NCBI RefSeq assembly: GCF_026210795.1
Contig: NC_089432.1
Location: forward strand, 2,418,001-2,482,000
Length of the DNA stretch: 64,000 nt
Direction of reading: 5' to 3'
Source of the DNA: Rhizophagus irregularis
Lineage: Eukaryota
Part shown: positions 5,190-62,307 of the stretch, piece by piece
Numbering within the stretch: the stretch's first letter is position 1
Layout: each line of letters starts with the position of its first letter
Program-made: the position numbers and the translations under genes
The notes under the pieces: generated by a model
Seen by the model: the letters and a program-made list of their open reading frames with translations, nothing else
What the model was told of the DNA's origin: nothing
The model's database searches: none

Positions 5190-5796
5190 TTTTTTTGTGG
5201 AAATAAAATATTACTAATTTTATTCGTAACTTTGTACAAAAAATTTTACTCATATGAAGATTGTAGACAATATTATAATTATAGGTAAGATCTTTTATTT
5301 TAAACTACCCCAATTAGTAATTAAGAAATTAGTAAACAAAATTTATTGTTGAAAGATTAACTTATAATTTTACCATTGTGATGCATTCTTGCGAAATAAA
5401 AAATAAATTTTTTAAATTATTTATTAAATTAGTTTAAATAAAGTTAATTTCATTGAAAGATTAAACAGTAAACATCGAAGTTTGATGAAAAATTAGATGA
5501 TGATAATAAACAAAAAAATACTTTTTTCAATTTTTGAAAAGCATAAATTTAAATTCCGGAGTAATAATTTTTTCTATACCCAACAATGTCTAATAGCACC
5601 GAACTTATTAGTAATTCAAATGATTTAAATAAATGGATTGAAGAAGCAATTTCTAAAAAATTTTTTAAATATTATGAATTTAAACAATTTCATAATATTC
5701 AAGAAATTGGTTCTGGTGGTTTTGGAAAAGTTTATCGTGCAAATTGAAAGAATTCTCATAAGCGTTATGCAATAAAAACTTTTTTTAATATCAACG

Positions 5797-7721
5797 CCCT
5801 ACAAAAAATTTTTATTCGGTACACTCCGATTTTTTTCTGAATATTTCGAAATGTCCCGAATATTACTGAAAATATTCCGATTATGTTGTGAATGTTGTTT
5901 TAGTCAAATTTTAGGAATTTAACATAACTGAAAATTTCTAGAAATATTCCGAAAAATAATCCAGTTTTATATTTAATTTGAAAATACTCCAGAAAGCAAT
6001 TTCATGTAGATCACTTAATAAATCAGTTAAATTACATAGTGGACGCGTTTAAAAATATATGTATAAGTATAAAAAACGCGTTTTAATTTAGTCAAAAAAA
6101 ATAAGCTCGCAATGAATGATCATTGAAGTATGAAAGTATAGATAAAAACGTATTTTTGCTTTTTAGAACTTAAATCTTATCATTTTTTTAAAAAAATTAC
6201 TATTACAAAATACTTATAAAATATTCAAAAAAATAAATATTAAATAATAACAATACAATAAGTAATATTATTTGAATAGTAGTTCAAGGATAAAGATTTA
6301 ATGAAATTTTTAATTATTCTGAATTTACACATAAATACTAGCGAACCAAAAGTTCTGCTATAATGATATCCAACAAACCCCTTCTGCGCCAACTCCAACT
6401 CTACTGTTATATCATCAAATACTCCTACAAGAATTATTAACACATCGGTAATTAAATACAAAAATATTTCAAAAATAATATTAGTGATATTAATAATAAT
6501 TGTTAGTTTCCACATGTTTCAGTATACAAAATCCTATTACCAAAGAAGAATGGAAACAATGGAAAAAAATGAAACAACCAAAAGAAGACTGGGAAGATTT
6601 TCTCCATTTATCGTATGATACATATTGGATTTATCAGGCAAGTATAATTTAACAATTTTATATAAATTTAACAATATTTTCTAACGAAGAATTTGTAAAT
6701 TGCAGAAATTGCAGAGAAACTTCGGGTAAAATTCAAAATGTCATTAATAATTTAAGTTATATATTTATATCTTCCATATTCTTAAACCTAATTAACTTTT
6801 CTAAACTATTATTTAGTTTAAAAATGATTTTCCAACATTTCCTGTTTCAGTGGGAGACTTTATTTTGCAAAAATGACTGTAATATCGTTGGAAATTGGGT
6901 AATATTTAGTATGTTATTATTATGTACAATTTTAACCTGATATTAATATAAATTTTATAGCTGAGACTGAATGCAAGAAAAAAGTTAAATAAGTTCATTA
7001 CGAGGTATGATCCACCTCCCAACGAAAATGTATCACTCTCTCTTATCCAAAACTCAAGAAAACAAGTCCAAATTCACAAACACCAAATCATTATCAAGTA
7101 TTGATATTAATGTCAAATTGTCCTCACCTGAAGTTATTAAGAAATCTGCATCAACTCCTTCTAAAACAATTATTGAAGCATCTTCAATCACTGAAAGAAT
7201 GAACTGGTGTTTAATTAGTATCTTCACAAATACAAGATGATTCAAGAAATTCTGGTATATTTATAATTTTTGTTAGTGATTACAATATTTATAATATTAC
7301 AATTTATAATTTGGTAAATATAAGAGGCAATAAAAGTTTAACTAGAATAACGAAATCAAGTTCAACAAAAGAAAAAAACAGCTAATAACCAAATTACTAC
7401 TTGAAAAAATCATAAGAAAGCTAAAAAATAGAATAAGTACTTTCAGATAATAGCTGAAAAATATGAATAAAAGAACCTGTAAATCTGTAATATTCAATAA
7501 ATTTTTCTGGATACTTTCGGATAATATATATTGTAAAATATCTGATAATATTCCGTTTACATTCATAAAATTTACTGAGCAATTTCGGGTGAAATCTGTA
7601 ATTATCATTCCGAAAAATGATCACTTTCTGTAGTAAAATCGGATAATAAAAATCGGAAAATTTTCGGAATACATAAACCAGATAAAAATCAGAATACATC
7701 CAAAAAAAATTTTTTATAGGG
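5797..7721. mobile_element. Non-autonomous CCCTA-type CACTA element inside exon 1 of gene A
   Basis: TIR ccctacaaaaaattttt / aaaaatttttttataggg; kinase sequence resumes directly after it; aac(g) is duplicated with a 1-nt ambiguity. Internal remnant FKNDFPTFPVSVGDFI is homologous to the accessory gene at 43730-45086. Confidence 0.85.
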
Positions 7722-9965
7722 TAACGATTCTACAGTTAAAGTGATAGTTCGTGAGGTAATTATAATATTAAACATTTTTTCATTAAAATTATTGTAAATA
7801 TGTAAAGATTGTTAATGTAATAATTTATTTATTAACTAGATTCAACTTCAACGTGAAGTTGATTTTCATGATAATATTATTCGTTTTTATGGTGTCACAA
7901 CTTCTATTAAGAATATGGTAAATTCTATTATTATTTATTTTATAAGATACAATAATTAATTGGTTAATAAAATTTTTCTTTTTTTTAGAAAATCAAAGAA
8001 AAGAATATTCATTGGTAATAGAATATGCTGAAAATGGTACCCTCCGAAAATATTTGAAAGAAAATTTTAAAAATCTCAGTTGTGACAATAAATTTGATCT
8101 TGCATTTCAATTGGTTATGCAGTATCATGTTTGCATGATGAAGGGATCATGCACCGTGATTTGGTAAATATTTTACAATTTATTATGTGCTCTATTTCAA
8201 TGATTCTCTTATTTTAACGTTAATTTAATATTAATAGCACTCTAATAACGTGTTAGTCCATCAGAAAACTATTAAGCTAGCAGATTTTGGTTTATCAAAA
8301 AGAATTGAGGAAATATCCAACTCCCAATCAAAAACATTTGGATTAATTCCTTATACTGATTTAAAAAGTTTTGACAGAAGTACAACAGAATTTTATTTAT
8401 TAAATAAAAAAAGCGATGTTTACAGCGTTGGTGTTTTATTATGGAAAATATCCAGTTGTAAGCCTCCTTTTCATGGTAAACCATATGATGTTGGTTTGGC
8501 TATAAGTATTTTACAAGGCCTTAGAGAGACACCTATTCATGATACTCTCGAAGAATATATAAAAATTTATATGGTAAATACAATTTAGACCATAACTACC
8601 ATAACTTATATATAATATTATTTTAATTAATTAAAGACGTTCTTTTTTTTGTAGATTGTTGGAATACTGAACCTGATAATCGTCCAACTATTAATCAAGT
8701 TGTTGATGAATTAAAAGTACTCATAACAAAAGTAAACATTATTATAAAAGATTTTCACTTACTATATAATGATACCAATAATGTCCAATCATTAAATAAC
8801 CATCAACTGCCTAATTTAAATATTTCTGAAAGTACTAATTCATCACATGGAGAATTATCTCAAGTTATTCAAAATTTTAATATGATGAATACAAAAGATA
8901 TTGAATCTTCAATATCATCAATTAACAAATTTGAGGATAATTTTAATATAATATTTAATAATATGTTCAATTTTTTTTATGATGATGATGAAGTAGCAAA
9001 GCAAAAGGTCTTAAGTTATCTTAATGAACAAAATATAACTTTGCAAAAGATTAATAATTTATTATTAAATAACCAAAATAACTCAAATACTATTTACTTA
9101 CTTGGAAAGTTTAATCATTTAGGAATTGGGATTAGTGTTGATGAGCAAAAAGCATTTGATTTATATCAAAAAGCAGCAAATTTAGGAAATTCATTAGGAA
9201 TAAATGATTTAGGGTGTTGTTATCATTGTGGAATTGGAACTGATATTGAAAAAAAAGGCATTTGAATTGTATCAAAAGGCAGCAGAATTAGGAAATTCAA
9301 TTGGAATATAAATTTAGGAGGTTGTTATGAAAAAGGAATTGGAACTGATATTGATTATCAAAAAGCATTTGAATTATATCAAAAAGCAGCAAATTTAGGA
9401 TATTCATCTGGAATAAATAATTTAGGACATTGCTATCAAAATGGAATTGGAACTGATATTGATAAGGAAAAAGCATTTAAATTATATCAAAATGCAGCTG
9501 AATTAGGAGATTCATCTGGAATAAATAATTTAGGATATTGTTATCAAATTGGAATTGGAACTGATATTGACAAGAAAAAAGCATTTGAATTATATCAAAG
9601 GGCTGCAGATTTAGGAAATTCATCAGGAATATATAATTTAGGACTTTGTTATAGAAATGGAATTGGAACTGATATTGATAAGAAAAAAGCATTTGAATTA
9701 CATCAAAAGGCTGCAGATTTAGGAGATTCATTTGGAGTAAATAGTTTAGGATATTGTTATCTAAATGGAATTGGAACTTATATTGATAAGGAAAAGGCAT
9801 TTAAATTATATCAAAAGGCAGCAGATTTAGGAAATTCATTTGGAATAAATAATTTAGGAAATTTGTATCAATATGGAATTGGAACTGATATTGATAAGAA
9901 AAAAGATTTGAATTATATCAAAAAGCTGCAGATTTAGGAAACAGTTTAGCTCAATATAACCTTGC

Positions 9966-10612
9966 TAGAGTTCCAAACAGGTCGACCAAATTCAGGTAAC
10001 CTGACAGGTTGATCTGAATTTATCAGGTCAGGTTTAGCAATTGCAATTCAGCATCAGTTCAGGTTGAATGACCTGTTGACTTGAAACTATGATTTTATAT
10101 AATAAGTGAATTATGGTATTATAATTCACTTTTTATATTGATTTTATATAATAAAAGTGAGTTGCGATTGGGATTCACTTTTTTATATTGATTTTATATA
10201 ATAAAAGTTAGTTGCGATTTTAGAATTCACTTTTTATATCGATTTTATATAATAAAAGCGAGTTGCGATATTAGAATTCACTTTTTTATATCGATTTTAT
10301 ATATAAAAAGTGGATTGCGGTACCGGAATTCACTTTTTTATATCAATTTTATATATAAAAAGTGAATTGCGGTATCAGAATTCACTTTTTTATATTGTTT
10401 TTATATTTAAAAAGTTAGTTGCGGTATTGCGATTCACCTTTTTATATGATTTTAATATAAAAAACTGAATCGCAATATTTCAAAAAAAATGTTTTGCACC
10501 ATTTTTTTTTGATATTTTAATAAAAATCCTGAAATTTTCAGGTTTCAGTTCAGGTCAGGTCAAACAGATAATTTGATATAACCTGACCTGACCTGACCCA
10601 TTCGGAACTCTA
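9966..10612. mobile_element. hAT-type MITE in the last SEL1 repeat of gene A
   Basis: Perfect 8-bp TSD aaccttgc; TIR tagagttcc / ggaactcta; subterminal acctg repeats; internal ~60-bp palindromic tandem units. Confidence 0.9.
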
Positions 10613-11103
10613 AACCTTGCTATGATGTATGAGGATGAAGAGGAAATTGTTAAAAATATAAATGAAGCAATTTATTGGTACAAAAAATCAGCTGAACAAG
10701 GAAACCAAAATGCTCATAATAAATTGGAGGAACTTAAAAATAGGGAAATAGAAAATAATTCATGTAAAATAAATTAATATTTGTTTGTTCAACTATTTTA
10801 AATTTTTAATACTACTATTATAGTTATATTTTTCATACATTTTCAGATCTTTAATACTACTTGCTAATTGTTTTATAATAAAATTCATTCTAATAAATTT
10901 GTTAAATTTTGTTGAATATAATAAACAAGAAATTGGGTTGATTTTTAGAGAAAATATCTGATGTTTTATATATTAAAAAACCTATTTTCATTAGATTTTA
11001 TATAAAATTGCATTAAAATTTGGTATCATATTAAGGTTTACAGAAAAAATAGGCTATTTTTAAATTTAATTTAAAGAATTAAATAAAAAGAATTTTTCTA
11101 ACT

Positions 11104-17463: not shown

Positions 17464-17480
17464 CAAAAAATAATCTAGGA

Positions 17481-20992: not shown

Positions 20993-21112
20993 ACCTTTGG
21001 CGTTCTGTGATACCATTTTATTTATAAATAATCAAAAAAATTTTCTTCATTTTTTCCATTTTTGAAAAGAATAAATTTAAATTCCGCAGCAATAATTTTT
21101 CTATACTCAACA

Positions 21113-24100
21113 ATGTCTAATAGCGCTGAACTTATTAGTAATTCAAATGATTAGAATGAATGGATTGAAGAAGCAATTTCTAAAAAACATATTAAATATT
21201 ATGAATATGAACAATTTTATAATATTCAGAAAATTGGTTCCGGTGGCTTTGGAAAGGTTTATCATGCGAATTGGAAGAATTCTCATAAGCGTTGTGCAAT
21301 AAAATCATTTTTTAATATCAATGATGCTACAATCAAAGCAATAGTTCGTGAGGTAATTATGATGTCAAACATTTTTTCGTTATTATTATAAATATTTAAG
21401 TTAATAATTTATTTATCACCTAGATTCAACTTCAACGCGAAGTTGATTTTCATGATAATGTTATTCGTTTTTATGGGGTTACAGCTTCTATTAAGGGTAT
21501 GATAAGTTCTAATATTTATAATATTATACAATAATTAATTAATTAATTTATAAAAATTTTTTTTTTAAGACAATCAAAAAAAAGAATATTCATTAGTGAT
21601 AGAATATGCATGCAGAAAATGGTACCCTCCGAAAATATTTAAAAGAAAATTTTGAAAATCTCACTTGGAACAATAAATTTAATCTTGCATCCCAACTGGC
21701 TTATGCAGTATCATGTTTACACGGTGAAGGGATCATGCACCGCGATTTAGTAAATATATTACAATTTAATTAGTTATTTTATTTTATTGATGTTTTGTCT
21801 TAATGCTGGTTCAATATTGATAGCACTCCAATAACGTGTTAGTCCATCAGAATATTATTAAGCTAGCAGATTTTGGTTTATTAAAAAGAATTGAGGAAAC
21901 ATCCAACTCTCAATCGAGAACATTTGGATTAATTCCTTATACTGATTCAAAAAGCTTTAATGGAAGTGCATATTTATTAAACAAAAAAAGTGATGTTTAC
22001 GGCGTAGGTGTATTACTATGGGAAATATCCAGTTGTCAGCCTCCTTTTCATGGTAAACGATGTGATGCTGGTTTAGCCTTGAATATTTTACAAGGCCTTA
22101 GAGAGACACCCATTCATAATACACCAGAAGAATATATAAGTATTTATACTGGTAAATACAATTTAAACTATCATAACTTATAAATAATGTCAGTTTTAAT
22201 TAATTAAAAGCATTCTTTTTTTGTAGCTTGTTGGAATGTTAAACCTGATAATCGTCCAACTATCGATCAAGTGGTTAATAAATTAGATAAATTAAAGGCA
22301 AAACAAAATATAATTATAAAAGATTTTCACTTATATAATAATGACAATGATATACAATCATCATATAACTACCAGTCTAATTCAGATGTAATTTCTGAAA
22401 ATATTGATTCATCACATGGAAATTTATCTCAAATTATTCAAAACTTCAATATAATGAATACAAAAGAAATAGAATCTTCAATGTCATCAGGTAACCTATT
22501 TGAGAATAGCTTTGATACTATAGTTAATGATATAATTAATTATCTTGTTGGTGATAGTATTGAAGTAGGAAAACAAAAAGTCCTAAATTATCTTAATAAC
22601 CATAATATAACTTTACAGGACTTTAATAATTTATTATTAAATAATCAAAATAACTCAAATTCTATTTACTTACTTGGAAAATTTAATGACTTAGGAATTG
22701 GAATCTGTGCTGATAGTCAAAAAGCATTTGAGTTTTATCAAAAAGCAACAGATTTAGGAAATGCATTTGGAATAAATGAGTTAGGATATTGTTATGAAAA
22801 AGGAATTGGAACTAATATTGATAAGAAAAAAGCATTTGAATTATATCAAAAAGCAGCAGATTTAGAAAATTCATTTGGTTTATATAATTTAGGAGTTTGT
22901 TATGAAAAAGGAATTGGAACTAATATTGATAAAAAAAAGCATTTGAATTATATCAAAAGGCTGCAAATTTGGGAAATTCATATGGAATAAATAGTTTAGG
23001 ACATTGTTATCAATATGGAATTGGAACTGATATTGATAAGAAAAAAGCATTTGAACTATATGAAAAGGCTGTAGTGGATTCAGAAAATTCATTTGGAATG
23101 ATTGATTTAGGTTATTGTTATGAAAATGGAATTGGAACTGATACCAATAATAAAAAGGCATTTGAATTATATCAAAAGGCAGTAGAATTAGGAGACACAT
23201 CCGTAATAACCAACTTAGGATATTGTTATGAAAAAGGAATTGGAACTGATATTGATAATAAAAAAGCATTTGAATTATATCAAAAAGCAGCAGATTTAGA
23301 AAATTCATCTGGGATGTATAATTTAGGAGATTGTTATGAAAAAGGAATTGGAACTGATATTGATAATAAAAAAGAATTTGAATTATATCAAAAAGCAGCA
23401 GATTTAGAAAATTCATCTGGGATGTATAATTTAGGAGATTGTTATGAAAAAGGAATTGGAACTGATATTGATAAGAAAAAAGCATTTGAATTATATCAAA
23501 ATGCTGCAGATTTAGGAAATTCATATGGAATAAATAGTCTAGGATTTTGTTATGAAAAAGGAATTGGAACTGATATTGATAATAAAAAAGCATTTGAATT
23601 GTATCAAAAGGCTGCAGATTTAGGAAATGCATCTGGAATGAATAATTTAGGAGGTTATTATGAAAATGGAATTGGAACTGATACTGACAAGAAAAAAGCA
23701 TTTGATTTATATCAAAAGGCAGCAGAATTAGGAAATTCATTTGGAATGCATAATTTAGGAGATTGTTATGAAAAAGGAATTGGAACTGATATTGATAAGA
23801 AAAAAGCATTTGAATTATATCAAAAGGCTGCAGATTTGGAAATTTATATGGAATAAATAATTTAGGAAATTGTTATCAATATGGAATTGGAACTGATATT
23901 AATGAGAAAAAAGCATTTGATTTATATCAAAATGCAGCAGATTTAGAAGATGCATTTGGAATGAATAATTTAGGATATTGTTATGAAAATGGGATTGGAA
24001 CTGATATTGATATGAAAAAAGCATTAGAATTATATCAGAAAGCGGCAGATTTAGAAAATTTATCTGGAATGTATAATTTAGAAGATAATTATGAAAAAGA

Positions 24101-24765
24101 AATTGGAACTAATATTGATAAGAAAATGCATTTGAATTATATGAAAATGTAGCTGCTGAATTAAGGAATTCATTTGGAAAAAATAATTTAGAAAATTGTC
24201 ATCAACATGGAATTGAAACTGATATTGATGATAAGAAAAAAGCATTTGAATTATATCAAAAGGCAGCAGAATTAGGAGATGCACTTGGAATAACCAACTT
24301 GGGATGTTGTTATGAAAATGGAACTGGTACTGATATTGATAAGAAAAAAGCATTTGAATTATATCAAAAGGCTGCAGATTTAGGAAATTCATTTGGAATA
24401 TATAATTTAGGAAATTGTTATCAACATGGAATTGGAACTGATATTGATAAGAAAAAAGCATTTGAATCATATCAAAAGGCTGCAGATTTAGGAAATTCAT
24501 TTGGAATATATAATTTAGGAAATTGTTATCAACATGGAATTGAAACTGATATTGATAAGAAAAAAGCATTTGAATTATATCAAAAGGCTGCAGATTTGGG
24601 AAACAGTTTAGCTCAATATTGTCTTGCTGTGATGTATGAGAATGGGGAAGGAACTGCTAAAAATATAGCTAAAGCAATTTATTGGTACAAAAAACAGAAT
24701 ACTTGAGATAATTTAGAGAAATCTAAAATTAGAAAATAAGGAACAATTTATGTAAAGTAAATTAA
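21113..24765 (+). pseudogene. Gene B: TKL kinase + ~19 SEL1 repeats, disrupted
   Basis: Same exon layout as A. TAG at codon 14, 4-bp duplication at ~21606, frameshifts in the repeat array; vestigial ...NNLCKVN* end. Confidence 0.9.
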
Positions 24766-32900: not shown

Positions 32901-33040
32901 GAATATATATACTTGGATACTGTTATGAGAATGGGATTGGAACCGAAATTGATAAAGAAAAGGCAGTTGAATTGTATAAAGATGCTGCTAACAGAGGAAA
33001 TAAAGATGCACCAATAAGACTAGAAATGATGAGTTCATAA
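29942..33040 (+). CDS. Gene C: intact TKL-like pseudokinase + ~14 divergent SEL1 repeats
   Basis: Exons 29942-30178, 30255-30488, 30578-30926, 31014-33040 join in frame. HCDLHAHN, ANFG in place of DFG, degenerate Gly loop; repeats of the type AQYxLGxxYENGxG..D.xKAxxWYxKSA. Confidence 0.9.
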
Positions 33041-41000: not shown

Positions 41001-43269
41001 TAGAAATGATCAGCACAAATCACGTGAACGTTACATTTTTCTGCGGGCAACTGGGAAGTTTGCTGCATGCTGAAGATCAGTAAAATTTCGACATAGAAAT
41101 GTCTGGTGTCACTATTTTTATTATAAATAGTTTTACAAAAAAAAAAATATTTTTTTTTTCAATTTAAAAACGTAAAATTAAATTCTGCCACAAAATTTTA
41201 AAATTTTTGTATATCCAACAATGTCTAATAACGCTGAACTTACTAAAAATTCAAATGAGTATAATTGGATTGAAGATGCAATTTCTAAAAAACTTATTAA
41301 ATATTATGAATTTGAACAATTCTGCGATCTGCAAGAAATTGGTTTCGGAGGTTTTGGAAAAGTTTATCGTGCAAGTTGGAAGAATTATTACAAACAATGT
41401 GCACTAAAATCCTTTTTTGATTTCAACGACTCTACAGTTAAAGGAATTGTCCGTGAGGTAATTTTAATATCGAACATATTTCAATTTATATATGTACATT
41501 TCTATTATTAACAAACTTCTATTTATTGCTTAGATTCAACTTCAGCGCGAAGTTGATTTTCATAATAACATTATCCGTTTTTATGGTGTCACAGCTTCCA
41601 GTAAAGGTATCAAAAGTTCTAGTAATATTATTTTTTTTTTATATTAAACTGTAATTAATTATCTAATTTGTAAATTTTTTTTTTTTTAAAAGAAAACCAA
41701 AGAAAAAAGTATATGTTAGTAATGGAATATGCCGACAGTGGTACTCTCCGAAAATATTTGAATGAAAATCTGTCTTGGAATGACAAATATAATCTTGCAT
41801 TCCAACTTGTTTGTGCAGTATCATGTTTACATGGCGAAGGGATCGTGCATCGTGATTTGGTAATTAATTTATAACTTATTATGATTGCGTAGTGTATTTA
41901 GTTTATCTTAATTTAATTATTTTAATTTAATGTAATTGAATAGCACTCCAATAATATATTAGTTCATCAGAATACTGTCAAGCTAGCAGATTTTGGCTTA
42001 TCAAAAAGAATTGAAGAAACATCCAACTCTCAATCAAAAACATTTGGATTAATTCCATATGTTGATCCAAAAAGTTTCAATAGAAGTAAAGAATTATATG
42101 TATTAAGTAAAAAAAGTGATGTTTATAGCATTGGCGTATTGTTATGGGAAATATCCAGTTGCCAGCCTCCTTTTCATGGTAAACAATATGATGTTGGTTT
42201 AGCTTTAGATATATTACAAGGCCTTAGAGAAACACCCACTCATGATACACATGAAGAATATATAAAAATTTATGTTGGTATGTATAAAATTACATTTGTA
42301 TGATTTATAACCATATAATTTTAATTAATTGAGGATAATTTTCTGTAGATTGTTGGAATATTGAACCTGATAATCGTCCAACTATTGATCAAGTAGTTGA
42401 AGAACTAAAAGTACTCATAATGAAAGAAAACATAATTATAAAAGATTTTCACTTATATAATAATACCAATAATTCTCTGTCATCAAATAACCATCAACTG
42501 TCTAATTCAACTGTTAAAATTTCTGAAAGTACTAGTTCAATACATGGAGATTTATCTCAAGTTATTCAAAATTTTGATATGATTGATATGATAAATACAG
42601 AAGAACTAGAACCAACATTATCATCAATTAACCAATTTAAGGATAACTTTAATATAGAAGTTAATATTATGTTCAATCTTTTTAATGATAGTGATGAAAT
42701 AGGGAAGCAAAAGATCTTAAGTTATCTTAATGAACAAAATATAACTTTGCAAGAGATTAATAATTTATTATTAAATGATCAAAATAACTCGCATTCTATT
42801 TACTTACTTGGAAAATTTAATCATTTAGGAATTGGAATCAGCGTTGATAATCAAAAAGCATTCGAGTTATATCAAAAAGCAGCAGATTTAGGAAATTCAT
42901 CTGGAATAAATGATTTAGGATATTGTTATTTAAATGGAATTGGAACTGGTATTGATAAGAAAAAAGCATTTGAATTATATCAAAAGGCAGCAGAATTAGG
43001 TAATTCATCTGGAATAAATAATTTGGGAGATTGTTATCAATACGGAATTGGAACTGATATTAATAATAAAAAAGCATTTGAATTATATCAAAACCCTATA
43101 AAAAATTTTGATCCGTTTTTTTATTCCGTTTTTATTCCGTTTTTATTATTAAATAGACAATTCCGTGTTTATTCAGTAAAGGTCTCATATTCGCGGAATT
43201 TATACGGAAATTTTACTGAAATTATCTATAAAAAAACTGAAATTTTATTGAATAGATTTAATTAATAAC

Positions 43270-43695
43270 ACTGATAATAAACTAATAAAAAACTGATAAA
43301 TTCATAGAATAATTTATTACGTAAAACTGATAAAAAACTAATAAAAAACTGATAAATTCAAAGAGAATTTATTGATATAAAATGGATAATAAACTAATAA
43401 AAAACTGATAAATTCATAGAATAATTTATTGTATAAAACTGATGAAAAACTAATAAAAAACTGATAAATTCATATAATAATTTATTGTATAAAACTGATA
43501 AAAAACTAATAAAAAACTGATAAATTCATAGAATAATTTATTGTATAAAACTGATAAAAAACTAATAAAAAACTGATAAATTCATAGAATAATTTATTGC
43601 GTAAAACTGATAATAAACTAATAAAAAACTGATAAATTCAAAGAGAATTTATTGATATAAAATGGATAAATTTCGGATAAAAAACTGATAAATTT
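43270..43695. repeat. Subterminal tandem array (~58-bp unit) of the CACTA element
   Basis: aaactaataaaaaactgataaattcatagaataatttattgtataaaactgat repeated about 7 times. Confidence 0.85.
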
Positions 43696-43729
43696 CCAAG
43701 ATACAATTTCAGGATTTCTCCCTACTTTA

Positions 43730-45086
43730 CTAATCAGTTTTCTTGCTAGAAGATCTTGTTATTCGTGAAGTTTTTGGAGTTTTTACTGGGGTTTGTGAAG
43801 ATTTCCTTTTTCTTTTTTTATCTATAAAATTGGAAAACATAATAAATATAATTATATTTATTTGAAAAAAAACAAAATTTCTGCCTTACTAGAAGTTTCT
43901 GCAATTTTATCCATAACAGGCGTAATATGGAGAGCATTGTCCTCAGTTTCAGAAGTATTAACTTCACCTGGAGTGGGAGATGGTGGATCCTCAGTACCTG
44001 GCGTATTAGCTTTGGAGATGGGAGTTGGTAAAATAATTGCTTTTGAACAGTAAAAATAATAGTGTTTATATTATTTAATATATTAAATATTAATATAAAT
44101 TACTATGGAATAATTATAAAAATAATACTTGAAGTACTTCCAGAAGCTTGCAAGCTACCAGTAATAGAATCACTCATGTTACGCTTCTTATTATTAGGTG
44201 GTTTGATATTTTTCTTTTTTGGCTGCGGTAGTGGAAGACCATGTTCTTTTGCATCAGCAATTTTCTTTTTTTTGGCTTGGTCAACTATAATAAAATTAAG
44301 TAAAAATTATTTAAAAAAAATACAAAAATTTTTGTAATAAAGCACATACCAGTACTATTACAGTACAAAGCAAGCCATTCACGAAATATAAAGTTAGCTT
44401 CGGAAACTGGAAATGTTGGGTTTGCTTCTTTGAACTGTAATAAAATAATAAATATTATTTATTTTTATATTTATTTTTATATCTTCACTAAAAATATGAA
44501 TTTATATACTTACATCTTTAATAATCTCTTCAACTATCCCCTTTTGCTGATGGGACATTGGTTCACCACGAGTAAGTCTAGAGGCTGCACGATTTCGAAG
44601 ATCATTCTGTAATAGTAATTATATAAAATTAATAATTGTTAGGCAAACACTTAAACTGAGTATATTTACCCTAAAGTTTAAGTATTGCTGCTTATCAAGT
44701 TTCAAGAATTCATGCCATTGGAACTCTTTTTTATTTTGCTTTTGAATTTGCTTATATTCTCTATATTCCTGAATTTTGATTGGATTCATCACAGTTCCTT
44801 TCGGAAACTGTATATAATTGTTATTACTAATTAGTAATTCAAGAAATTATTTGTAAACAAAGTATACCTGTTCATTAGTAGTGCCATTCACAGCACTACG
44901 TGCATCTAGAGATGATCCTGCAAGTGAAGGCTCAATGGTTATTAGCTCTGTATATAATTTATGACGCTTTTCAGAACTTAAAACATTAATAAGAGATATA
45001 TCTTCCAATAATACAAGAAATAGTTGTTTGCGTTCTTCATAACTAAGTTCACTAATATCAATAGCATGATTAGTACTTTGTGACAT
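43730..45086 (-). CDS. Multi-exon accessory gene of the CACTA element (one apparent frameshift near 44735)
   Basis: MSQSTNHAID...; exon pieces FQWHEFLKLDKQQYLNFR and FKEANPTFPVSEANFIFREWL; basic S/P/T-rich tail ending SSKKTD*. Confidence 0.6.
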
Positions 45087-45519
45087 CTTTTAAAAGAAAT
45101 TTTAAAATATTTATTATTAAAGAAAAGAAGAGTTGAATGTTTAATTAAATAAAAGTTTGAGTTGTATTTATAATGAAAAGTATATGATAATTGATATGCG
45201 TTTTACAAATTTGAAAGTATAAATAGTTTAATATTTATAATACAAAAGTATATAATAGTTTAATAATTATACGCGTCTTACAAATTTGAAAGTATAAATA
45301 GTTTAATATTTATAATATAAAACTATATGAAAGTTTAATAATTGATACGCGAAATTATAATAAAGTCAATATTTAATACTACTATTATATTGTATAAGCA
45401 TTAATTATTTTGATAATATTTTTTTTTAAATATATGGAATTTATCAGTTATATGAAAATTAATAATTATATAAAAATTCAAAACTCTGATTATTTTTAAT
45501 ATTTTTAATAATTTTTAAT

Positions 45520-48500
45520 ATGGTTAAACAAGTTCTATGCACCTGTATTTGGTGTCTTCAAGAGTCAAATGGCCAAGGAAAATCAGTAAGCAAGGCAACT
45601 CGTGCAAGGCATATAATAAAACAAAAAAAAACTTGGGCCAACCCAGCAGGCATGCCTACATTACAGCGTCATATAACTACTCCCATTTCTCAGACTACTT
45701 CAGCAGTATCACCATCTACAGTAATGCTATTGCCTACTAATACTACAGAAGAAATTTCAAATTATAATCATGGTGAAGATATTAATATAGATTTTTTTGA
45801 AAATATGATGAGTGATAGAAATGAAGAAATCATATCTGAACGATCTTCTAGTGATGAAGAAGATCAAATTGAAGTATTAGAATATGAAGAAAATGAAAAG
45901 GATAATGATGATGAATATGATGGGGATGATGATAATGATGATGATAATGATGAAGGTGATCATAATAATAATAATAATGAAGGAGATGATAAAGGGAATA
46001 ATGAAGAAGAAGAAAATAATAAGGAATATAATGGAGAAATTTCAGAAGATTTAATTAAAGGTTTACGGCTTCTTAAAATTAAAGACAAATATAATATCCC
46101 AGAAGCTGCATTTAATGAAATTCTTAAAGTTTTTGAAATTTCTAAAGTATCTCTTTTTAAACTTCGAAAACTTCTTGGAAATATTGTTCCATTAGAACCA
46201 ACTCTTGTAAATTGTTGCATCAACTCATGTGTAGCATTTACAGGCGAATTTATTAATGAAGATCATTGCCCATATTGTGGGGAATTTCGTTATAAATCTA
46301 GCCAAGTTGCTCGAAAAAATGCTTCTTATTGGTCACTTATTAATACACTTAGAGCACAATATAAGGACAAAGCTCGTTCTGAGACTCTTCGCTATCGACA
46401 TACTTACACCTCAACAAATGAGTATACAATTGGTAATCAAATAAGTGATGTATTTGATGGTTTTCGTTATAAAACTCTAGTTTCTTCTGGATTTTTCTCA
46501 GACAGTCGGGATATTGCCCTAATAGCATCTACTGATGGATACCAGATTTTCTGTCAAAAAAGAAATGACTGCTGGGTTATTCTTTTGATAAATGCAAATC
46601 TACCACCTGATGTGCGTGTCAAACGTGAAAATTTGATGATTTCTGCACTTATTCCAGGACCAAAAGAACCAAAAAATTTTAATTCTTTTTTACAACCACT
46701 AGTTGATGAATTAAAACAATTACAAGGTATTTAATTTATATTTATTAGCATATGTCAGATATGTTTAGATTATAAATAAACTTATAATATATAATACTTA
46801 TAATTCAATTATTATAATAATGAGTATAGAAGGTGTTCAATGTTTTGATGGTTTAACAGAAAGTACATTTACCCTTCATGCACATATTATGAGTTTGTCT
46901 GGTGACATTCCAGCACTTGCTAAAGTTATGTGTACAACAGGACATAACTCATATAAGGCTTGTCGATTTTGCACTATTAATGGAGTGTATTGTCAAGAAA
47001 ATCGACATGTATATTTTCCACACAAATCTGCTAATAGGAGGTATGATCCTGAAAATCTTCCATTACGAACACATGAAGGTTATATTCAAGATGTTATGGC
47101 CATAGAACATGTAAATGGAACTTTATATAGACAAGAAGTGCAAAAGAGAGGTGAGATATAAATTGTTTATAAATTGAATAAAATTTTTATTCATTTATTT
47201 GTTGTTTTTGTAGGTGTAAAAGGTCGAAGCATTCTTTTGGAACTTAAGTCAATTGAGTTCCCAGCTTCATTTCCCATCGATATTATGCATGGATTATTTG
47301 AAAATATTGCACCAGCAATGCTTCGCCATTGGTTTGGTACTTTTTTTAAAAAAGATTTTGCCTCTGAATGTGTACTTTCTAAAAGTATTTGGAATGAAAT
47401 TGGAACTATAATGGAAAAAAATCAAAAGAACATGCCTCTTGATTTTGGCCGTCCACCTATTGACATTCAAAAACATTTTGCAGGATTCAAAGCAGAGGAT
47501 TGGACAAATTGGGTGATACTGTATTCACTTCCACTCTTACAGAATTATCTTCCTGAAAGGTAAATTTGCTTGCAACATATATATATAATGTTACCAAGTA
47601 ATATTTACTATTAATTTAAATTTTAATATTTTTAGGTATTTAAATGGATGGGCAAAATTCGTACATGCTGTAAAGCTTTGTCTTAAAAAAAATATTAGTA
47701 TATCAGAATTGACAGAAATAGATAGATTATTTCGTGAATTTGTTACACATTATGAAAGGTATATTTTCATAAATAGTTATTGCAATCAATTCTTTATTTA
47801 ACTTATTAAATATAATTTAATTTTATTAGAGAGTATATTCAGGATGATTCCAGACGATTTTCGGCAGCACTAATTTCTTATCATTATTTACTGCATATTT
47901 CTACCTCCATTCGTAATACTGGGCCTGCATGGGCAACTTGGCAGTACCCCATGGAGAGATTATGTGGGATGCTAGTGCCATTAGTGCATTCCAAGCAACA
48001 TCCCTATACAAACCTTCGAAACCAAATTACTATATGGACTCAATTCTCACATCTTCAGTACAAAGCTGAAGTGAACCAGAAAGTTTTTGGAAACAAGTTG
48101 AGAGAACTTAGTACAATTGAAGAAGAGTTGTACTCACTATCACGCAAGTATTGTATGAATAGAACTGAGTTACAACGCCTTAGAGCTTATTATGTAACAG
48201 TATTGAATAAGCCTGCAGACCAACTTATGGTGAGCTATGATGTTCCAATTTTAATCTTTAAAAACTTTAGTTCTCTAACATTTGCTTAGCCAATTACAGA
48301 TTCCATACAGAAGTATGGGAAGTTTCGAACAAAGTATGGACTGATTATTAATTCAAAACTATCAAATCGCAAGGGTGATGTTGCTCGTAAAAATTTCTGT
48401 ATTGCTGTATGTATATCATTAGTACTAATGATTTTTCCAAGAATTATCATTTTAATATTAGCCACTTTTAGGTAAAGCTTTTGGTTGATAAAAATGCTCA

Positions 48501-48777
48501 TCGCCCAAATGCACCAATCATTCTGGAAGAAAGGGAGTTTTTTGGAGAGGTACAATATTTCTTTTCACATCAATATAATGGTTGCTGGTCCATGTTAGCA
48601 TATGTGCAATGGGTGCGAAATCCTCGGCCTTCTGGACATGGTCCATTAAAGTTCCGGGATCTTGGTGCATTTGAAGTAATTAATATTAGTGCAATTGATA
48701 GAAATGTTGGATTTCTCAAGATGCCAAACAATGAATTGTATATTATCGATCGAGAAAATAGAGTTAAATTCAGATAA
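45520..48777 (+). CDS. CACTA/EnSpm TnpD-like (Tnp2/Transposase_21 family) transposase, ~7 exons
   Basis: CINSC...CPYC, STDGYQIF, NANLPPDVR, IPGPKEPKNFNSFLQPLVDEL, GDIPA...GHNSYKACRFC, DIMH, WQYPMERLCG. Confidence 0.88.
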
Positions 48778-51354
48778 TTATTTGTTGTTATTTGGATAGT
48801 ATAATCAATTAAATTTATTAATTTGCGAAAGTCAAAAAACTTTATTTATAAATTATAGTTCATTTCGTTACGGTGTTGTATTACATAAAAAAAAAAAACT
48901 GGGATCCCAGACCCCAGGCGTTACTGACTAGTGAATTTTTATTTGCTTTTTTATTTTATTATATTTCTGATTTATTCATATTTTTTCCATTATTATTCCG
49001 TTTTTTATCATGGTTAATTATCAGCAAATTATCAGTTAATTTTAGAAATTTGATAGTCCATTTTAATTCCGTATTTATATTGCTGAAATTACTGAAAGAA
49101 TCCGGATTGTTACTCAACCGGTTACTATTCCGAAAAAATTCACTGAATATTTACGGAATCCAAACAAAATCATGGAGTTATAACGGAAATATTCTGGAGT
49201 GTCATTTTTTATAGGGAAAGGCAGCAGAATTAGGAAATTCATCTGGAATAAATAGTTTAGGATATTGTTATCGAAATGGAATTGGAACTGATATTGATAA
49301 TAAAAAAGCAATTGAATTATATCAAAAGGCTGCAGATTTAGGAAATGCATCTGGAATTAATAATTTAGGACAATGTTATGAAAATGGAATTGAAATTGAT
49401 ATTGATTATCAAAAAGCATTTAAATTATATCAAAAGGCAGCAGATTTAGGAAATGCGTTTGGAATAAATAATTTAGGATTTTGCTATCAAAATGGATTTG
49501 GTACTATTGTTGATAAGAAAAAAGCATTTGAATTATATCAAAAGGCAACAGATTTAGGAAATGCATTTGGAATAAGTAATTTAGGGCAATGCTATGAAAA
49601 TGGATTTGGTACTGATATTGATAAGAAAAAAGCATTTGAATTATATCAAAAAGCAGCAGGTTTAGGAAATGCATTTGGAATAAATAATTTAGGATATTGT
49701 TATGAAAATGGATTTGGTACTGATATTGATAAGAAAAAAGCATTTGAATTATATCAAAAAGCAGCAGATTTAGGAAATGCATTTGGAATAAATAATTTAG
49801 GACAAAGTTATCAAAATGGAAATGGAATTGATATTGATTATCAAAAGGCATTTAAATTATATCAAAAAGCAGCAGATTTAGGAAATGCATTTGGAATAAA
49901 TAATTTAGGATATTGTTATAAAAATGGATTTGGTACTAATATTGATAATAAAAAAGCATTTGAATTATATCAAAAAGCAGCAGAATTAGGAAATTCAACT
50001 GGAATAAATAATTTAGGAGATTGCTATCAATATGGAATTGGAACTGATATTGATAAGAAAAAAGCATTTGAATTATATCAAAAAGCAGCAGATTTAGGAA
50101 ATGCATTTGGAATAAATAATTTAGGATATTGTTATGAAAATGGAATTGGTACTGATATTGATTATCAAAAAGCATTTGAATTATATCAAAGGGCAGCAGA
50201 TTTAGGAAATGCATTTGGAATAAATAATTTAGGACAATGTTATCAAAATGGAAATGGAATTGATATTGATTATCAAAAAGCATTTAAATTATATCAAAAA
50301 GCAGCAGATTTAGGAAATGCATTTGGAATAAATAATCTAGGATATTGTTATAAAAATGGATTTGGTACTAATATTGATAATAAAAAAGCATTTGAATTAT
50401 ATCAAAAAGCAGCAGAATTAGGAAATTCAACTGGAATAAATAATTTAGGAGATTGCTATCAATATGGAATTGAAACTGATATTGATAGGAAAAGAGCATT
50501 TGAATTATATCAAAAAGCAGCAGATTTAGGAAATGCATTTGGAATAAATAATTTAGGATTTTGTTATGAAAATGGAATTGGAATTGATATTGATAAGAAA
50601 AAAGCATTTAAATTATATCAAAAGGCAACAGATTTAGGAATTGCAATTGGAATAAATAATTTGGGATATTGTTATGAAAATGGATTTGGTACTGATATTG
50701 ATAAGAACAAAGCATTTGAATCATATCAAAAGGCAGCAGATTTAGGAAATGTATTTGGAATAAATAATTTAGGATGCTGTTATGAAAATGGATTTGGTAC
50801 TAATATTGATAAGAAAAAAGCATTTGAATCATATCAAAAAGCAGCAGATTTAGAAAATACATTTGGAATAACCAATTTAGGAAATTGTTATCTTAATGGA
50901 ATTGGGACTGGTATTGATTATCAAAAGGCATTTGAATTATATGAAAAGGCGTCAAATTTAGGGATTAGTGTAGCTCAATATAATCTTGCTATGATGTATG
51001 AGAATGGAAAAGGAACTGTGAAAAATATAAATGAAGCAATTTATTGGTACAAAAAATCTGCTGAACAAGGAAATCAAGGTGCTCAAAATAAATTAGAGGA
51101 GCTTAAATAGAAAAATAAAGAATAATTCATGTAAAAGTAAATTAAGAATATTTGATTAAACATTTAAATAAAATAACACATAACAATCATTATTTTTTAA
51201 ATATTATTAAATTGTCATTTATATTTTTAACTAAAATTTATTTTTAGTATATTTAATAAGAAATTTTTCATTACAATTGATAATTGCTTGTAACTATAAA
51301 CAATTTATGTACTGATATCTAGTACCTATTTATTAACAATAATTTAATCTATTA

Positions 51355-58285: not shown

Positions 58286-59643
58286 TATTTTTGTGAAAGT
58301 AAGAAGTCAACAGCAGATTTTAAACGCGACCTTTATTACTATGAGATTATCCCCGAATGTTATTATTATCGATATTAATAATCAATGTCGATCATAACCG
58401 GATTAGCACTTAAATTGAATCACAGGAAACAGTTATTAAACTTTAAAATTATACTTTTTTTCTTTTTTTTTGTTCAACGTGAAAAATCTGAAGACCTGAT
58501 TTCCTATGATGAAATAATGAAAATTAGAAAGGTCGCACTAAGTTGAAAACAGCGATAAATAATTCAAGCTTAAAAATAAAAAAAAAATTCACATCATTTT
58601 AAAGTGATTTAATTATTTCTTGATAGTTTAAGATAAAATCCGTTATTTTACAAGATTCTAATTTGTATATTCAATAAGTAAATTCTATTATATTCCAAAT
58701 AGAATTGATTGATAATGTTAAATTCGTAGTCTCCGAACCAGTGAACATTTTGGGAAATCGTTTTGCAAATTAATTACCCTTAAATGGCTTTTGAACTAAT
58801 TTGCCCAGAAATTTTTTTTTAAATGTTATAGAATAATGTTCCGAATGATAAAATTTGCGTCATCATATTAGTTGATTAACATATACTTGCTAATTAAGGT
58901 TACGATGTTATACAAATTGGTGATATTAGCGTGATAAACTAGCCAAAATTTGTATTACAACCCCAATTGCTTAAAATTGAGAGAATCAAGGTTCGGCAAA
59001 ATTATTATATTGTATGATTAGAAATTTTTTCTTTAGTGACGCTGGATTCCAGCCTTTAAAAACACTATATTATTCAATTACAGGAAGTGTACCGATCACA
59101 AACTTAATATTTTTTATTAAAATATTATTTATAGGTTGGTAAATAATTTATTTTAAAAGGCATGATAAACAAAAAAAAAATATAAAATATTAAATTATTT
59201 ATTTCTATCGATCACAGGCTGACTAGCTTATTGTACCATGTTTTACTTATATTGAGCGGTATATCTAATTTTGAATGGTAGATACTTTTGGAATGTCAGT
59301 TTCTTCCAAACTACCTTTCTTTAATAAGTTCATATCACATTTCCTGCCTGCTATCATATCTATTGCTTTTATCTAAATTTGCTGCTAATTAATTTACAAA
59401 GATAATTCCTGAAATATAATAGTAGAATTCACCGGTTGGAAATAGGTCACCAACTAATATTTTTCTTTCTTAAGCTTTGTTAAAGAAATTTAGAAATTCT
59501 GATTGTGCTGAACTTTATTAACCGCAGTCCTGCATGCTGAAGATCAGTGAAATTTCGACATAAATAGTTTACAAAAGAAAAAAAATATTTTATTTTCAAA
59601 ACGTAAAACTAAATTCTGCTGCAACATTATTGTATACCCAACA

Positions 59644-62307
59644 ATGTCTAATAACGCTGAACTTACCAAAAATTCAAATGAGTATAATTGGATTGAAGAT
59701 GCAATTTCTAAAAAACTTATTAAATATTATGAATTTGAACAATTTTGCGATCTGCAAGAAATTGGTTTCGGAGGTTTTGGAAAAGTTTATCGTGCAAGTT
59801 GGAAGAATTATTACAAACAATGTGCACTAAAATCCTTTTTTAATTTCAATGACTCTACAGTTAAAGGAATTGCCCGTGAGGTAATTTTAATATCGAACAT
59901 ATTTCAATTTATATATGTACATTTCTATTATTAACAAACTTCTATTTATTGCTTAGATTCAACTTCAGCGCGAAGTTGATTTTCATAATAACATAATCCG
60001 TTTTTATGGTGTCACAACTTCTAGTAAAGGTATCAAAAATTTTAGTAATAATATTTTTTTTTTATATTAAATAAACTAACTTGTAAATTTTTCTTTTTTA
60101 AAAGAAAATCAAAGAAAAAAGTATATGTTAGTAATGGAATATGCCGACAATGGTACCCTCCGAAAATATTTGAAAGAAAATTTGGAAAAACTCACTTGGA
60201 ATGATAAATTCAATCTTGCATTCCAACTGGTTTGCGCAGTATCATGCTTACATAACGAAGGGATCATGCACCGCGATTTGGTAATTAATTTACATCTTAT
60301 TATGATTTACGTAGTGTATTTTAGCAATTAGCTCATCTTAATTTAATTATTTTAATTTAATGTAATTGAATAGCACTCCAATAATATATTAGTTCATCAG
60401 AATACTGTCAAGCTAGCAGATTTTGGCTTATCAAAAAGAATTGAAGAAATACCCAACTCTCAATCAAAAACATTTGGATTAATTCCATATGTTGATCCAA
60501 AAAGTTTTAATAGTAGTACAACAGAATTATATGTATTAAATAAAAAAAGTGATGTTTATAGCATTGGCGTATTGTTATGGGAAATATCCAGTTGCCAGCC
60601 TTCTTTTCACGGTAAACCATATGATGTTGGTTTAGCTTTAAGTATTTTACAAGGCCTTAGAGAAACACCCACTCATGATACACCTAAAGAATATATTAAA
60701 ATTTATATTGGTATGTATAAAATTACATTTATATGATCTAAATCATATAATTCTAATTAATTGAAGATAATTTTCTGTAGATTGTTGGAATTTTGAACCT
60801 GATAATCGTCCAACTATTGATCAGGTAGTTGAAGAATTAAAAGTACTCATAACGAAAGAAAACGTAATTATAAAAGATTTTCACTTATATAATAATACCA
60901 ATAATACTCTGTCATCAAATAACCATCAACTTTCTAATTCAACTGTTAAAATTTCTGAAAGTACTAATTCATTAAACGGAGAATTACAATTTATTCCGAA
61001 TACAAAAGATATAGAATCTTTAATGTCATCAAGTAACCAGTTTGAGAATAACTTTGATACAATAGTTATTAATACTATGTTCAATCTTTTTAATGATAGT
61101 GATGAAATAGGGAAGAAAAAGGTCTTAAGTTATCTCAATGAACAAAGTATAACTTTGCAATAGATCAATAATTTATTATTAAATAATCAAAATAACTCGC
61201 ATTCTATTTACTTGGAAAATTTAACAATTTAGGAATTGGAATCAGTGTTGATAATAAAAAAGCATTCAAGTTATATCAAAAAGCAGCAGATTTAGGAAAT
61301 TCACATGGAACAAATAATTTAGGGAATTGTTATCAATATGGAATTGGAACTGATATTGATAATAAAAAGCATTTGAATTGTATCAAAAGGTTGCAGATTT
61401 AGGAAATTCTTATGGAATAAATAGTTTAGGAGATTGTTATCAAAATGGAATTGGTACTGATATTGATTATCAAAAAGCATTTAAATTATATCAAAAGGCA
61501 GCAGATTTAGGAAATGAATTTGGGATAAATAGTATAGGATATTGTTATCAAAATGGATTTGGTACTGATATTGATAATAAAAAAGCATTTGAATTATATC
61601 AAAAGGCATCGGATTTAGGAAATTCATATGGAATAAATAATTTAGGACAAAGTTATCAAAATGGAATTGGAATTGATATTGATAATAAAAAAGCATTTAA
61701 ATTATATCAAAAGGCAACAGATTTAGGAAATTCATATGGAATAAATAATTTAGGAAATTGTTATCAAAATGGAATTGGAATTGATATTGATAATAAAAAA
61801 GCATTTAAATTATATCAAAAGGCAGCAGATTTAGGAAATTCATATGGAATAAATAATTTAGGAAATTGTTATCAATATGGAATTGAAATTAATATTGATA
61901 ATAAAAAAGCATTTGAATTATATCAAAAGGCATCAGATTTAGGAAATTCTTATGGAATAAATAGTTTAGGAGATTGTTATGAAAATGGAATTGGAACTGA
62001 TATTGATAAGAAAAAAGCATTTGAATTATATCAAAAGGCAGCAGATTTAGAAAATACATTTGGAATAACCAACCTAGGAAATTGTTATCTTAATGGAATT
62101 GGGACTGGTATTGATTATCAAAAGGCATTTGAATTATATGAAAAGGTATCAAATTTAGGGATGAGTGTAGCTCAATATAATCTTGCTATGATGTATGAGA
62201 ATGGAAAAGGAACTGTGAAAAATATAAATAAAGCAATTTATTGGTACAAAAAATCTGCTGAACAAGGAAATCAAGTTGCTCTAAATAAATTAGAGGAGCT
62301 TAAATAG
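59644..62307 (+). pseudogene. Gene E: TKL kinase + ~10 SEL1 repeats, recent paralog of D
   Basis: Exon 1 differs from D by 2 aa. TAG at 61161 (GAG in D), 4-bp deletion near 61210, A-run frameshift near 61365. Confidence 0.9.

What the first reader, a model, noticed from the sequence alone, without database searches (positions are those of the whole stretch)
5586..62307. Cluster of kinase-SEL1 genes with homogenised, copy-number-variable 108-bp arrays: candidate NLR-like diversifying receptor system
Seen: four paralogs share a kinase + linker and end in near-identical 108-bp units numbering about 9, 19, 20 and 10; all four are damaged, consistent with fast birth-and-death. Known: fungal NLRs (Podospora HET-E/HET-D WD40 arrays, high-internal-conservation TPR/ANK arrays) diversify ligand specificity by repeat shuffling, and kinase/SEL1 families are expanded in Glomeromycotina. 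Inference: this is an effector-kinase + variable-sensor architecture without a NACHT/NB-ARC domain, possibly for non-self recognition (allorecognition, endobacteria, plant host).
Basis: partly seen in the sequence, partly recalled or inferred. Interest (0 to 1): 0.85.

Follow-up and report, generated by a model that had tools for sequence, protein, structure and literature searches.

The report
Mycorrhizal kinases with hypervariable repeat arms
Four broken copies and one intact cousin of a mycorrhizal-fungus kinase gene carry tandem protein repeats that vary most at the positions predicted to form the binding groove, so the family is likely a fast-changing set of sensors, possibly for foreign molecules, although no ligand is known.

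Summary
The window matches Rhizophagus irregularis DAOM 197198. Four paralogous TKL-type kinase + linker + SEL1 genes carry 9, 19, 20 and 10 units (7, 17, 18, 8 core), and all four are broken. Units are about 86% identical, not near-identical. Exchange between genes was not demonstrated.

New evidence: the scaffold is under purifying selection. In 11 other apparently intact genes the six most variable of 36 positions are exactly the known TPR ligand-face positions (2, 5, 6, 9, 12, 13). Codon TPR9 has omega 2.2-5.7 in 9 of 10 model/tree settings; the gene-wide test depends on the model. Intact, expressed members exist. Gene E has an intact allele-like relative with two extra units.

Against het-like allorecognition: 9 of 11 allele-like pairs keep their unit number, their differences are not enriched at the ligand face, and assemblies of one strain disagree on unit counts. 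No NACHT/NB-ARC domain, so these are not NLRs.

The fifth gene (C), a likely pseudokinase with diverged repeats, is the published 'skt5 mating gene' induced on co-inoculation, in one host only.

Verdict: likely a paralog-level diversifying sensor-kinase repertoire; ligand and immune role inferred.

The parts
5586..10777 (+). Gene A: broken TKL kinase-linker-SEL1 gene (GBC21932 / OCT59_023865); 7 core units 9185-9937
   Evidence: 0 of 33 RNA libraries above 1 RPKM
5797..7721 (.). Insertion in exon 1 of A with CCCTA...TAGGG ends like those of the element in D; no transposase hit tested inside
9966..10612 (.). Insertion in the cap unit of A; short terminal inverted repeat, 8-bp target duplication (hAT-like, label recalled), internal 52-bp tandem array
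21113..24706 (+). Gene B: broken kinase-linker-SEL1 gene (GBC21935 + GBC21936 by gene order); 17 core units 22757-24598
29942..33040 (+). Gene C: intact 948-aa kinase-SEL1 gene, likely pseudokinase (G-loop SSVGKI, HCD, DFG changed to NFG), diverged units; = GBC21938 / RIR_0905100
   Evidence: 7 of 33 libraries; listed as induced on co-inoculation in one host
41221..43093 (+). Gene D 5' part: kinase with G-loop, HRD and DFG, linker, first units (GBC21940 / OCT59_023870)
   Evidence: 12 of 33 libraries
43094..49216 (+). CACTA-type DNA transposon (Pfam Transposase_21, DUF4218) inserted inside a SEL1 unit of D
   Evidence: P0009 (another assembly) reads through the site without it
49217..51110 (+). 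Gene D 3' part: 16 further in-frame core units (49233-50960) with a recent 4-unit block duplication, and cap
59644..62307 (+). Gene E: broken kinase-linker-SEL1 gene (OCT59_023873; GBC21944 by gene order); 8 core units 61295-62157
   Evidence: intact relative P0001 has 10 core units

Best explanation
These are dead copies (A, B, D, E) of a Glomeraceae subfamily of kinase-SEL1 genes whose repeats vary most at the predicted binding groove, and which likely works as a rapidly renewed repertoire of intracellular sensor kinases. Shown: N-terminal tyrosine-kinase-like domain with catalytic motifs, a low-confidence linker, a helical cap and a SEL1 solenoid; scaffold and kinase under purifying selection; variation focused on helix-A positions TPR 2, 5, 6, 9, 12, 13; arrays remodelled by unit and block duplication and loss; genes born by tandem duplication and killed by transposons and point lesions; some intact members are transcribed. 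Supported but model-dependent: positive selection at TPR9 (and 2, 12). Inferred: each array would bind a different protein or peptide in its groove, and binding would switch on the kinase by clustering or release of autoinhibition, with no nucleotide-binding switch. The ligands are likely fast-changing and foreign (microbial, viral or other-genotype proteins); this is the least supported step. Diversity lies mainly between paralogs, not between alleles.
For: Entropy over 50 window units peaks at unit codon 11 = TPR9 (10 amino acids, 11 codons, H 2.84), then codons 4, 14, 15, 23. In 69 distinct units from 11 other apparently intact genes the top six positions are unit 4, 14, 7, 15, 11, 8 = TPR 2, 12, 5, 13, 9, 6; mean H 2.74 against 0.86 for six polar helix-B positions (79 units from 12 genes). 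PMC1261162 (passages) names 2, 5, 6, 9, 12, 13 as ligand contacts. Codon models: site 11 omega 2.2-5.7, p<=0.01, in 9 of 10 tree x frequency settings; M2a beats M1a at p<0.01 in 8 of 10. 12 null simulations with no omega>1 and 0-100 conversion tracts gave LRT at most 10.4 (observed 28.1) and H at most 2.40. Kinase dN/dS 0.22-0.27 in 6 of 6 paralog pairs. D and E differ by 6-7% at neutral sites, yet only 1 of 8 E units has a clear positional counterpart in D. Two Diversispora kinase-SEL1 proteins show the same pattern with a different unit (internal identity 0.82, 0.75; top positions 11, 4, 7, 14). SEL1 arrays of other sources are fused to TIR, caspase or TIR+NACHT. 2 of 4 intact members looked up are expressed (10 and 17 of 33 libraries). 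No NB-ARC and no Pfam NACHT entry in the 16,542 of 41,572 gene rows held.
Against: With F3x4 frequencies the gene-wide test fails on the ML tree (p=0.073), on the conservative topology (p=0.078; site 11 omega 1.46, p=0.20) and in 3 of 3 subsets. 2 of 12 null runs reached p<0.05 through conversion alone. The DNA tested is from pseudogenes. TPR ligand-face positions are variable across TPR families generally, so the pattern shows a binding face, not a foreign ligand. Arrays are mostly stable between allele-like records. A, B, E and D-3' show 0 of 33 libraries, as do 2 of 4 intact members. Arrays are CpG-depleted (o/e 0-0.13), fitting a methylated, transposon-rich compartment where turnover could be largely neutral. 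No ligand, kinase assay or phenotype exists.
Confidence: 0.55

Rival explanations
1. Neutral by-product: slippage and unequal crossing-over expand arrays in a methylated, transposon-rich region; exposed groove positions are merely unconstrained.
For: 4 of 5 family genes in the window are dead; CpG depletion; higher methylation of kinase and Sel1 genes (PMC8647823 passages); F3x4 tests often not significant; many copies silent.
Against: Polar helix-B positions stay conserved while groove positions vary; a neutral codon on the same tree reaches H>=2.84 in at most 0.25% of 2000 runs in 6 of 6 settings; kinase dN/dS about 0.25; same pattern in Diversispora.
Confidence: 0.2
2. Diversifying binding face, but for endogenous partners: the arrays track other expanded R. 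irregularis families or act as scaffolds in ordinary signalling, not immunity.
For: Arrays are mostly conserved between allele-like records; several neighbours are broadly expressed (up to 29 of 33 libraries); the expansion is read as signalling in PMC6123716 (passages).
Against: Rapid gene death and presence of broken and intact versions of one locus (E vs P0001, D vs P0009) fit dispensable sensors better than core signalling.
Confidence: 0.15
3. het-e/het-d-like allorecognition loci: alleles with shuffled arrays decide fusion compatibility between isolates.
For: 2 of 11 allele-like pairs differ in unit number or order (E/P0001 8 vs 10; P0056/P0156 6 vs 9); gene C and GBC21972 of this cluster are listed as induced on co-inoculation in host COL2215.
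Against: 9 of 11 pairs keep unit number; no allelic enrichment at the groove (p=0.38); induction is about 3-fold, n=3, padj 0.005 and 0.071, in 1 of 3 hosts, and C has a stable, diverged array (99.2% identical in another record); no cell-death domain.
Confidence: 0.1

Closest known systems
Expanded kinase / Sel1 'high copy number' genes of R. irregularis (orthogroup OG0000000; PMC6123716, PMC8647823, PMC9453076)
   Same: These are annotated members (Pfam PF07714 + PF08238), transposon-associated, often silent.
   Different: The passages read report counts, methylation and transposon links; none mentions internal repeat conservation, groove-focused variation or selection.
Fungal NLRs with high-internal-conservation TPR/ANK/WD40 repeats (Podospora HNWD, Pa_2_10340; PMC4986451, PMC13449251)
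   Same: C-terminal solenoid with conserved scaffold, variable concave face, unit-number change, transposon association, fast gene turnover.
   Different: No NACHT/NB-ARC; SEL1 repeats; N-terminal kinase only; lower internal identity; little allelic diversity; inter-gene exchange not shown.
Cereal kinase-fusion / tandem-kinase immune receptors (Sr43, WTK4, RWT4; search listing only)
   Same: Kinase fused to a sensing domain without its own NOD; pseudokinase relatives nearby.
   Different: Integrated non-repeat domains; function proven there, not here; no homology tested.
NOD-less TIR-SEL1 and caspase-SEL1 proteins and SEL1-TIR-NACHT proteins (P0271, P0222, P0220, P0239)
   Same: SEL1 array next to an immune-type domain; P0271 varies at the same positions.
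   Different: Units 45-51% identical to D's; uncharacterised; in the NACHT cases the array is N-terminal.
Yeast Skt5/Chs4 (chitin synthase activator)
   Same: SEL1 repeats give the BLAST hit behind the name of gene C.
   Different: C has an N-terminal kinase fold and belongs to a lineage-specific expanded family; the name is not evidence of orthology.

Membership tests
NLR (STAND) receptors | Central NACHT or NB-ARC domain | tested here: not met
   Pfam finds none in window ORFs or in 11 of 11 relatives; model shows kinase, low-confidence linker, helical cap, solenoid.
NLR (STAND) receptors | N-terminal effector plus C-terminal superstructure-forming repeats | tested here: met
   Kinase 38-295, SEL1 x10-12.
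HIC-repeat receptors (Dyrka 2014) | >=85% amino-acid identity over >=100 aa within the array | tested here: inconclusive
   My approximation: D 0.96 meets; A 0.78, B 0.82, E 0.84 do not; 8 of 14 relatives reach 0.85.
HIC-repeat receptors (Dyrka 2014) | Variable sites on the concave face | tested here: met
   By position mapping on the L-G-x-x-Y motif and helix A of the model; atomic coordinates were not inspected.
HIC-repeat receptors (Dyrka 2014) | Positive selection at repeat codons | tested here: inconclusive
   Site 11 omega>1 in 9 of 10 settings; gene-wide test significant in 8 of 10 on all units, 3 of 6 on subsets.
HIC-repeat receptors (Dyrka 2014) | Repeat-number polymorphism among isolates | tested here: inconclusive
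   2 of 11 allele-like pairs differ; three assemblies of one strain give 8, 9 and 4 units for one gene.
HIC-repeat receptors (Dyrka 2014) | Repeat exchange between genes | tested here: inconclusive
   Within-minus-between identity only 1.1 points; 4-fold distance of units across clades 0.17 (CI 0.06-0.30) vs 0.18-0.24 in non-repeat parts; A<->T-only distance is higher in units.
het allorecognition genes | Incompatibility / cell death on allele confrontation; balancing selection | not testable with these tools
   No phenotype or population data; allelic data point against.
TKL-type kinase-Sel1 genes of Glomeromycotina | PF07714 kinase with G-loop, Lys, HRD, DFG fused to PF08238 repeats | tested here: met
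   D, E and intact relatives; best solved matches are TK/RAF/MLK kinases. C departs (SSVGKI, HCD, NFG).

The most novel reading that the evidence does not exclude
Arbuscular mycorrhizal fungi, which show no expanded NLR family in the gene table part read, run their non-self surveillance on NOD-less kinase-SEL1 receptors: hundreds of tandem paralogs whose repeat grooves diversify under positive selection and unit shuffling, with stable pseudokinase partners such as gene C; part of the published 'mating response' between isolates would then be this immune-like response.
Probability: 0.25. Interest if true: 0.85.

Novelty: new variant of a known kind. Interest (0 to 1): 0.58.

Why it matters
The kinase-Sel1 expansion of these fungi (a mean of about 3400 Sel1 motifs per genome, PMC9453076 passage) has no assigned function. 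A groove-specific selection signal turns it into a testable receptor repertoire and extends the NLR-type repeat regime to proteins without a nucleotide switch. It also changes the reading of a published marker: 'skt5' GBC21938 and 'sps1' GBC21972 are kinase-Sel1 genes of this cluster, so their names do not support a mating role.

Tried and rejected
No whole genome was held, so no genome-wide DNA set of intact arrays. Sequencing runs: no RNA holder listed; contigs of 4 runs laid on E were short and mixed with paralogs, uninformative on unit number; presence of the D transposon across runs stays open. Metagenome scan: 80 loci, only 6 clean core-like units, too few for codon tests. IQ-TREE codon run timed out; replaced by my own MG94 code. 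Inter-gene homogenisation looked supported by total pS (units 0.16 vs kinase 0.35) but not after composition control: claim dropped. Pairs dropped before the 2-of-11 count: P0021/P0066 (truncated), P0039/P0173 and /P0174 (no kinase), four same-strain pairs; some kept pairs may be one isolate annotated twice. The text of PMC7490403 says GBC21938 was induced in all three hosts; its tables list it for COL2215 only, and the 'Skt5p' in the other two is GBC31102: three-host claim rejected. Enrichment of the family among the 79 induced genes was not tested properly. ESM Atlas on the linker: no usable hit. Rfam: 0 hits. Earlier findings: none. CpG/RIP hypermutation as the cause at codon 11 rejected: its C-containing codons are not in CpG context and changes include transversions. 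Supplement of PMC10234402 could not be read and may hold expression data.
Full report
IDENTITY. The linker of gene D is 100% identical to two Rhizophagus irregularis DAOM 197198 proteins. Accessions place A = GBC21932/OCT59_023865, D-5' = GBC21940/OCT59_023870, E = OCT59_023873. The gene order in Supplementary Data 2 of PMC6123716 (rows searched) matches the window: DDE transposase, A, Tigger, B (two models), C, D, transposase-Sel1 model, E. At least 15 further OCT59_0234xx-0244xx relatives on the same 5.9-Mb record are among the 120 listed hits, so the window is part of a larger cluster.

OBSERVATION. Core units number 7, 17, 18 and 8, or 9, 19, 20 and 10 with the degenerate first unit and the cap. 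All four genes are broken; lesions are listed under the observation check. Units are 86-87% identical within genes and 85-87% between genes; the difference is 1.1 points (permutation p=0.001). D holds a recent 4-unit block duplication at 97-99%. The fifth gene C is intact (948 aa, canonical splice sites), with units about 46% identical and a degenerate kinase. In a kinase tree of 56 rows A, B, D and E fall in one clade of 21 rows (100/99) that includes R. clarus proteins; C lies on a distant long branch whose members share the degenerate G-loop.

ANATOMY. An AlphaFold2 model of the intact relative P0004 (mean pLDDT 71; kinase only moderately confident) shows kinase, low-confidence linker (307-367), helical cap and a regular SEL1 solenoid with helix A at unit positions 3-15. 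Fold and sequence searches return SEL1 proteins and TK/RAF/MLK kinases. No NACHT or NB-ARC in 11 of 11 relatives.

WHERE THE UNITS VARY. In the 50 window units codon 11 carries 10 amino acids, followed by codons 4, 14, 15 and 23. Anchored on the L-G-x-x-Y motif, unit positions 4, 7, 8, 11, 14, 15 are TPR positions 2, 5, 6, 9, 12, 13, which PMC1261162 (passages) names as ligand contacts. I recalled this set after seeing the window units, so the independent test is on other genes: in 69 distinct units from 11 apparently intact genes these six are the six most variable positions (one search prints p=2.6e-4 for six among the top seven of the 19 columns not used to call units). Polar helix-B positions are conserved (H 0.86 vs 2.74). 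Caveat: these positions vary across TPR families in general, so this marks a binding face, not the nature of the ligand.

SELECTION. Own MG94 site models, fixed trees. All 50 units, 5 topologies x 2 frequency models: M2a over M1a p<0.01 in 8 of 10; codon 11 omega 2.2-5.7 (p<=0.01, uncorrected) in 9 of 10. The failures are with F3x4 (p=0.073 and 0.078). Subsets D+E, A+B and D: significant in 3 of 3 with intron-based frequencies, 0 of 3 with F3x4; codon 11 omega 2.6-4.7 in 6 of 6. Twelve null simulations gave LRT 0-10.4 against 28.1 observed, but 2 of 12 passed p<0.05 through conversion alone. Overall unit omega is 0.39-0.56; kinase dN/dS is 0.22-0.27. Codon 23, at the start of helix B, also scores above 1 in several settings and is unexplained. 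Reading: purifying scaffold, probable diversifying selection on the groove.

TURNOVER AND POLYMORPHISM. D and E differ by 6% at 4-fold sites and 7% in introns, yet only the last core unit matches positionally (96%); the other 7 of 8 E units have best D matches of 90-94% out of order. P0001 (PKY28792), sister to E in the tree and 98% identical before the array, is intact and has two extra, distinct units. P0009 (PKY61462, partial) reads through D's insertion site. But 9 of 11 allele-like pairs keep their unit number, and only 8 of 37 differences in 45 matched units fall on the six groove positions (p=0.38). Three assemblies of one strain give 8, 9 and 4 units for one gene, so short-read unit counts are unreliable. 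Exchange between genes is neither shown nor excluded.

EXPRESSION. Libraries above 1 RPKM, of 33: A 0, B 0 and 0, C 7, D-5' 12, D-3' model 0, E 0 (assigned by order). Intact members: GBC22002 10, GBC21969 17 (linked to intact OCT59_023892 by N-terminus and unit count, not aligned), GBC20900 0, GBC45074 0. C is GBC21938: adjacent locus tag, and its self bit score of 1917 equals the tabulated one. PMC7490403 (passages, sections 16 and 18, supplementary files 1, 2, 3, 6, 12 in part) calls it the mating regulator 'skt5'. It is up about 3-fold on co-inoculation of two isolates in host COL2215 (padj 0.005 and 0.071, n=3) and is absent from the tables for the other two hosts. 'sps1' GBC21972 is also a kinase-Sel1 gene of this cluster, and 3 of 6 other 'mating kinases' looked up belong to the same expanded orthogroup. 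This is a weak hint of a role in non-self encounters, and it concerns C, not the conserved-repeat subfamily.

BREADTH. Among the 120 best listed hits to D's array, all with >=60% identity are Rhizophagus or Glomus kinase-SEL1 proteins. Two Diversispora proteins have internally conserved arrays of another unit type with the same variable positions; independent homogenisation is inferred. Other SEL1 arrays are fused to TIR, caspase or TIR+NACHT. The 16,542 of 41,572 gene rows held contain no NB-ARC and no Pfam NACHT entry; this is suggestive only.

MECHANISM. Most likely (0.55): a paralog repertoire of sensor kinases; ligand in the groove would activate the kinase by clustering or release of autoinhibition. 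Architecture, variation pattern, turnover and some expression are shown; activation mode and foreign ligands are inferred. Rivals: neutral turnover (0.2), endogenous partners (0.15), het-like allorecognition (0.1).

KNOWN AND NEW. The expansion is known (passages of PMC8647823, PMC6123716, PMC9453076, PMC8778642, PMC10234402). The repeat regime is known from fungal NLRs (PMC4986451 passages; PMC13449251 abstract, section 12 and passages); neither text contains 'Sel1' or 'Rhizophagus'. Searches found no paper reporting groove-focused variation or selection in mycorrhizal kinase-Sel1 arrays; subscription papers are outside the library. PMC10197012, PMC9815663 and PMC11291939 (passages) add nothing on this family. 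It works like a HIC-repeat receptor in its sequence evolution; it is not an NLR.

Noticed in passing
window 29942-33040: Gene C is the published 'skt5' co-inoculation gene GBC21938; the paper's three-host claim does not match its tables. C's clade shares a degenerate G-loop and several members have HCN in place of HRD, a likely pseudokinase clade.
   Followed up: yes
window 41221-43093: The transposon-truncated D 5' part (kinase plus three units) is above 1 RPKM in 12 of 33 libraries; it could encode a kinase lacking most of its array.
   Followed up: partly
arrays of A, B, D, E vs C: CpG observed/expected 0-0.13 in the four conserved arrays, 0.61-0.65 in C, 0.82 window-wide.
   Followed up: partly
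unit codons 23, 24, 28: A 'DYQKAFKL' variant recurs in A, D and E; codon 23 scores omega>1 in several models though outside the classic groove set.
   Followed up: no
window 2018-2844 (-), about 11310-15390, 16855-17463: DDE_3 transposase remnant, Tigger/pogo-type element (HTH_Tnp_Tc5, DDE_1), and two further TTTTTTATAGGG ends like those of the elements in A and D.
   Followed up: partly
window 53968-58306 (-): Several ORFs of 105-304 aa without Pfam hit; one has an EFFGKRGWTLH motif that I recall from DNA transposases (recalled, untested).
   Followed up: no
window 33988-35165 and 36221-36472: 309-bp x3.8 and 125-bp x2 tandem repeats, unexplained.
   Followed up: no
P0236, P0288 (Diversispora epigaea); P0271: Kinase-SEL1 and TIR-SEL1 proteins with internally conserved arrays varying at the same positions.
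   Followed up: partly
PMC7490403 supplementary file 12, part 1: The induced list also holds an RNA-dependent RNA polymerase, an RNF213-like gene and an AIG1-Hint gene, which I read as immune-like (inference).
   Followed up: no
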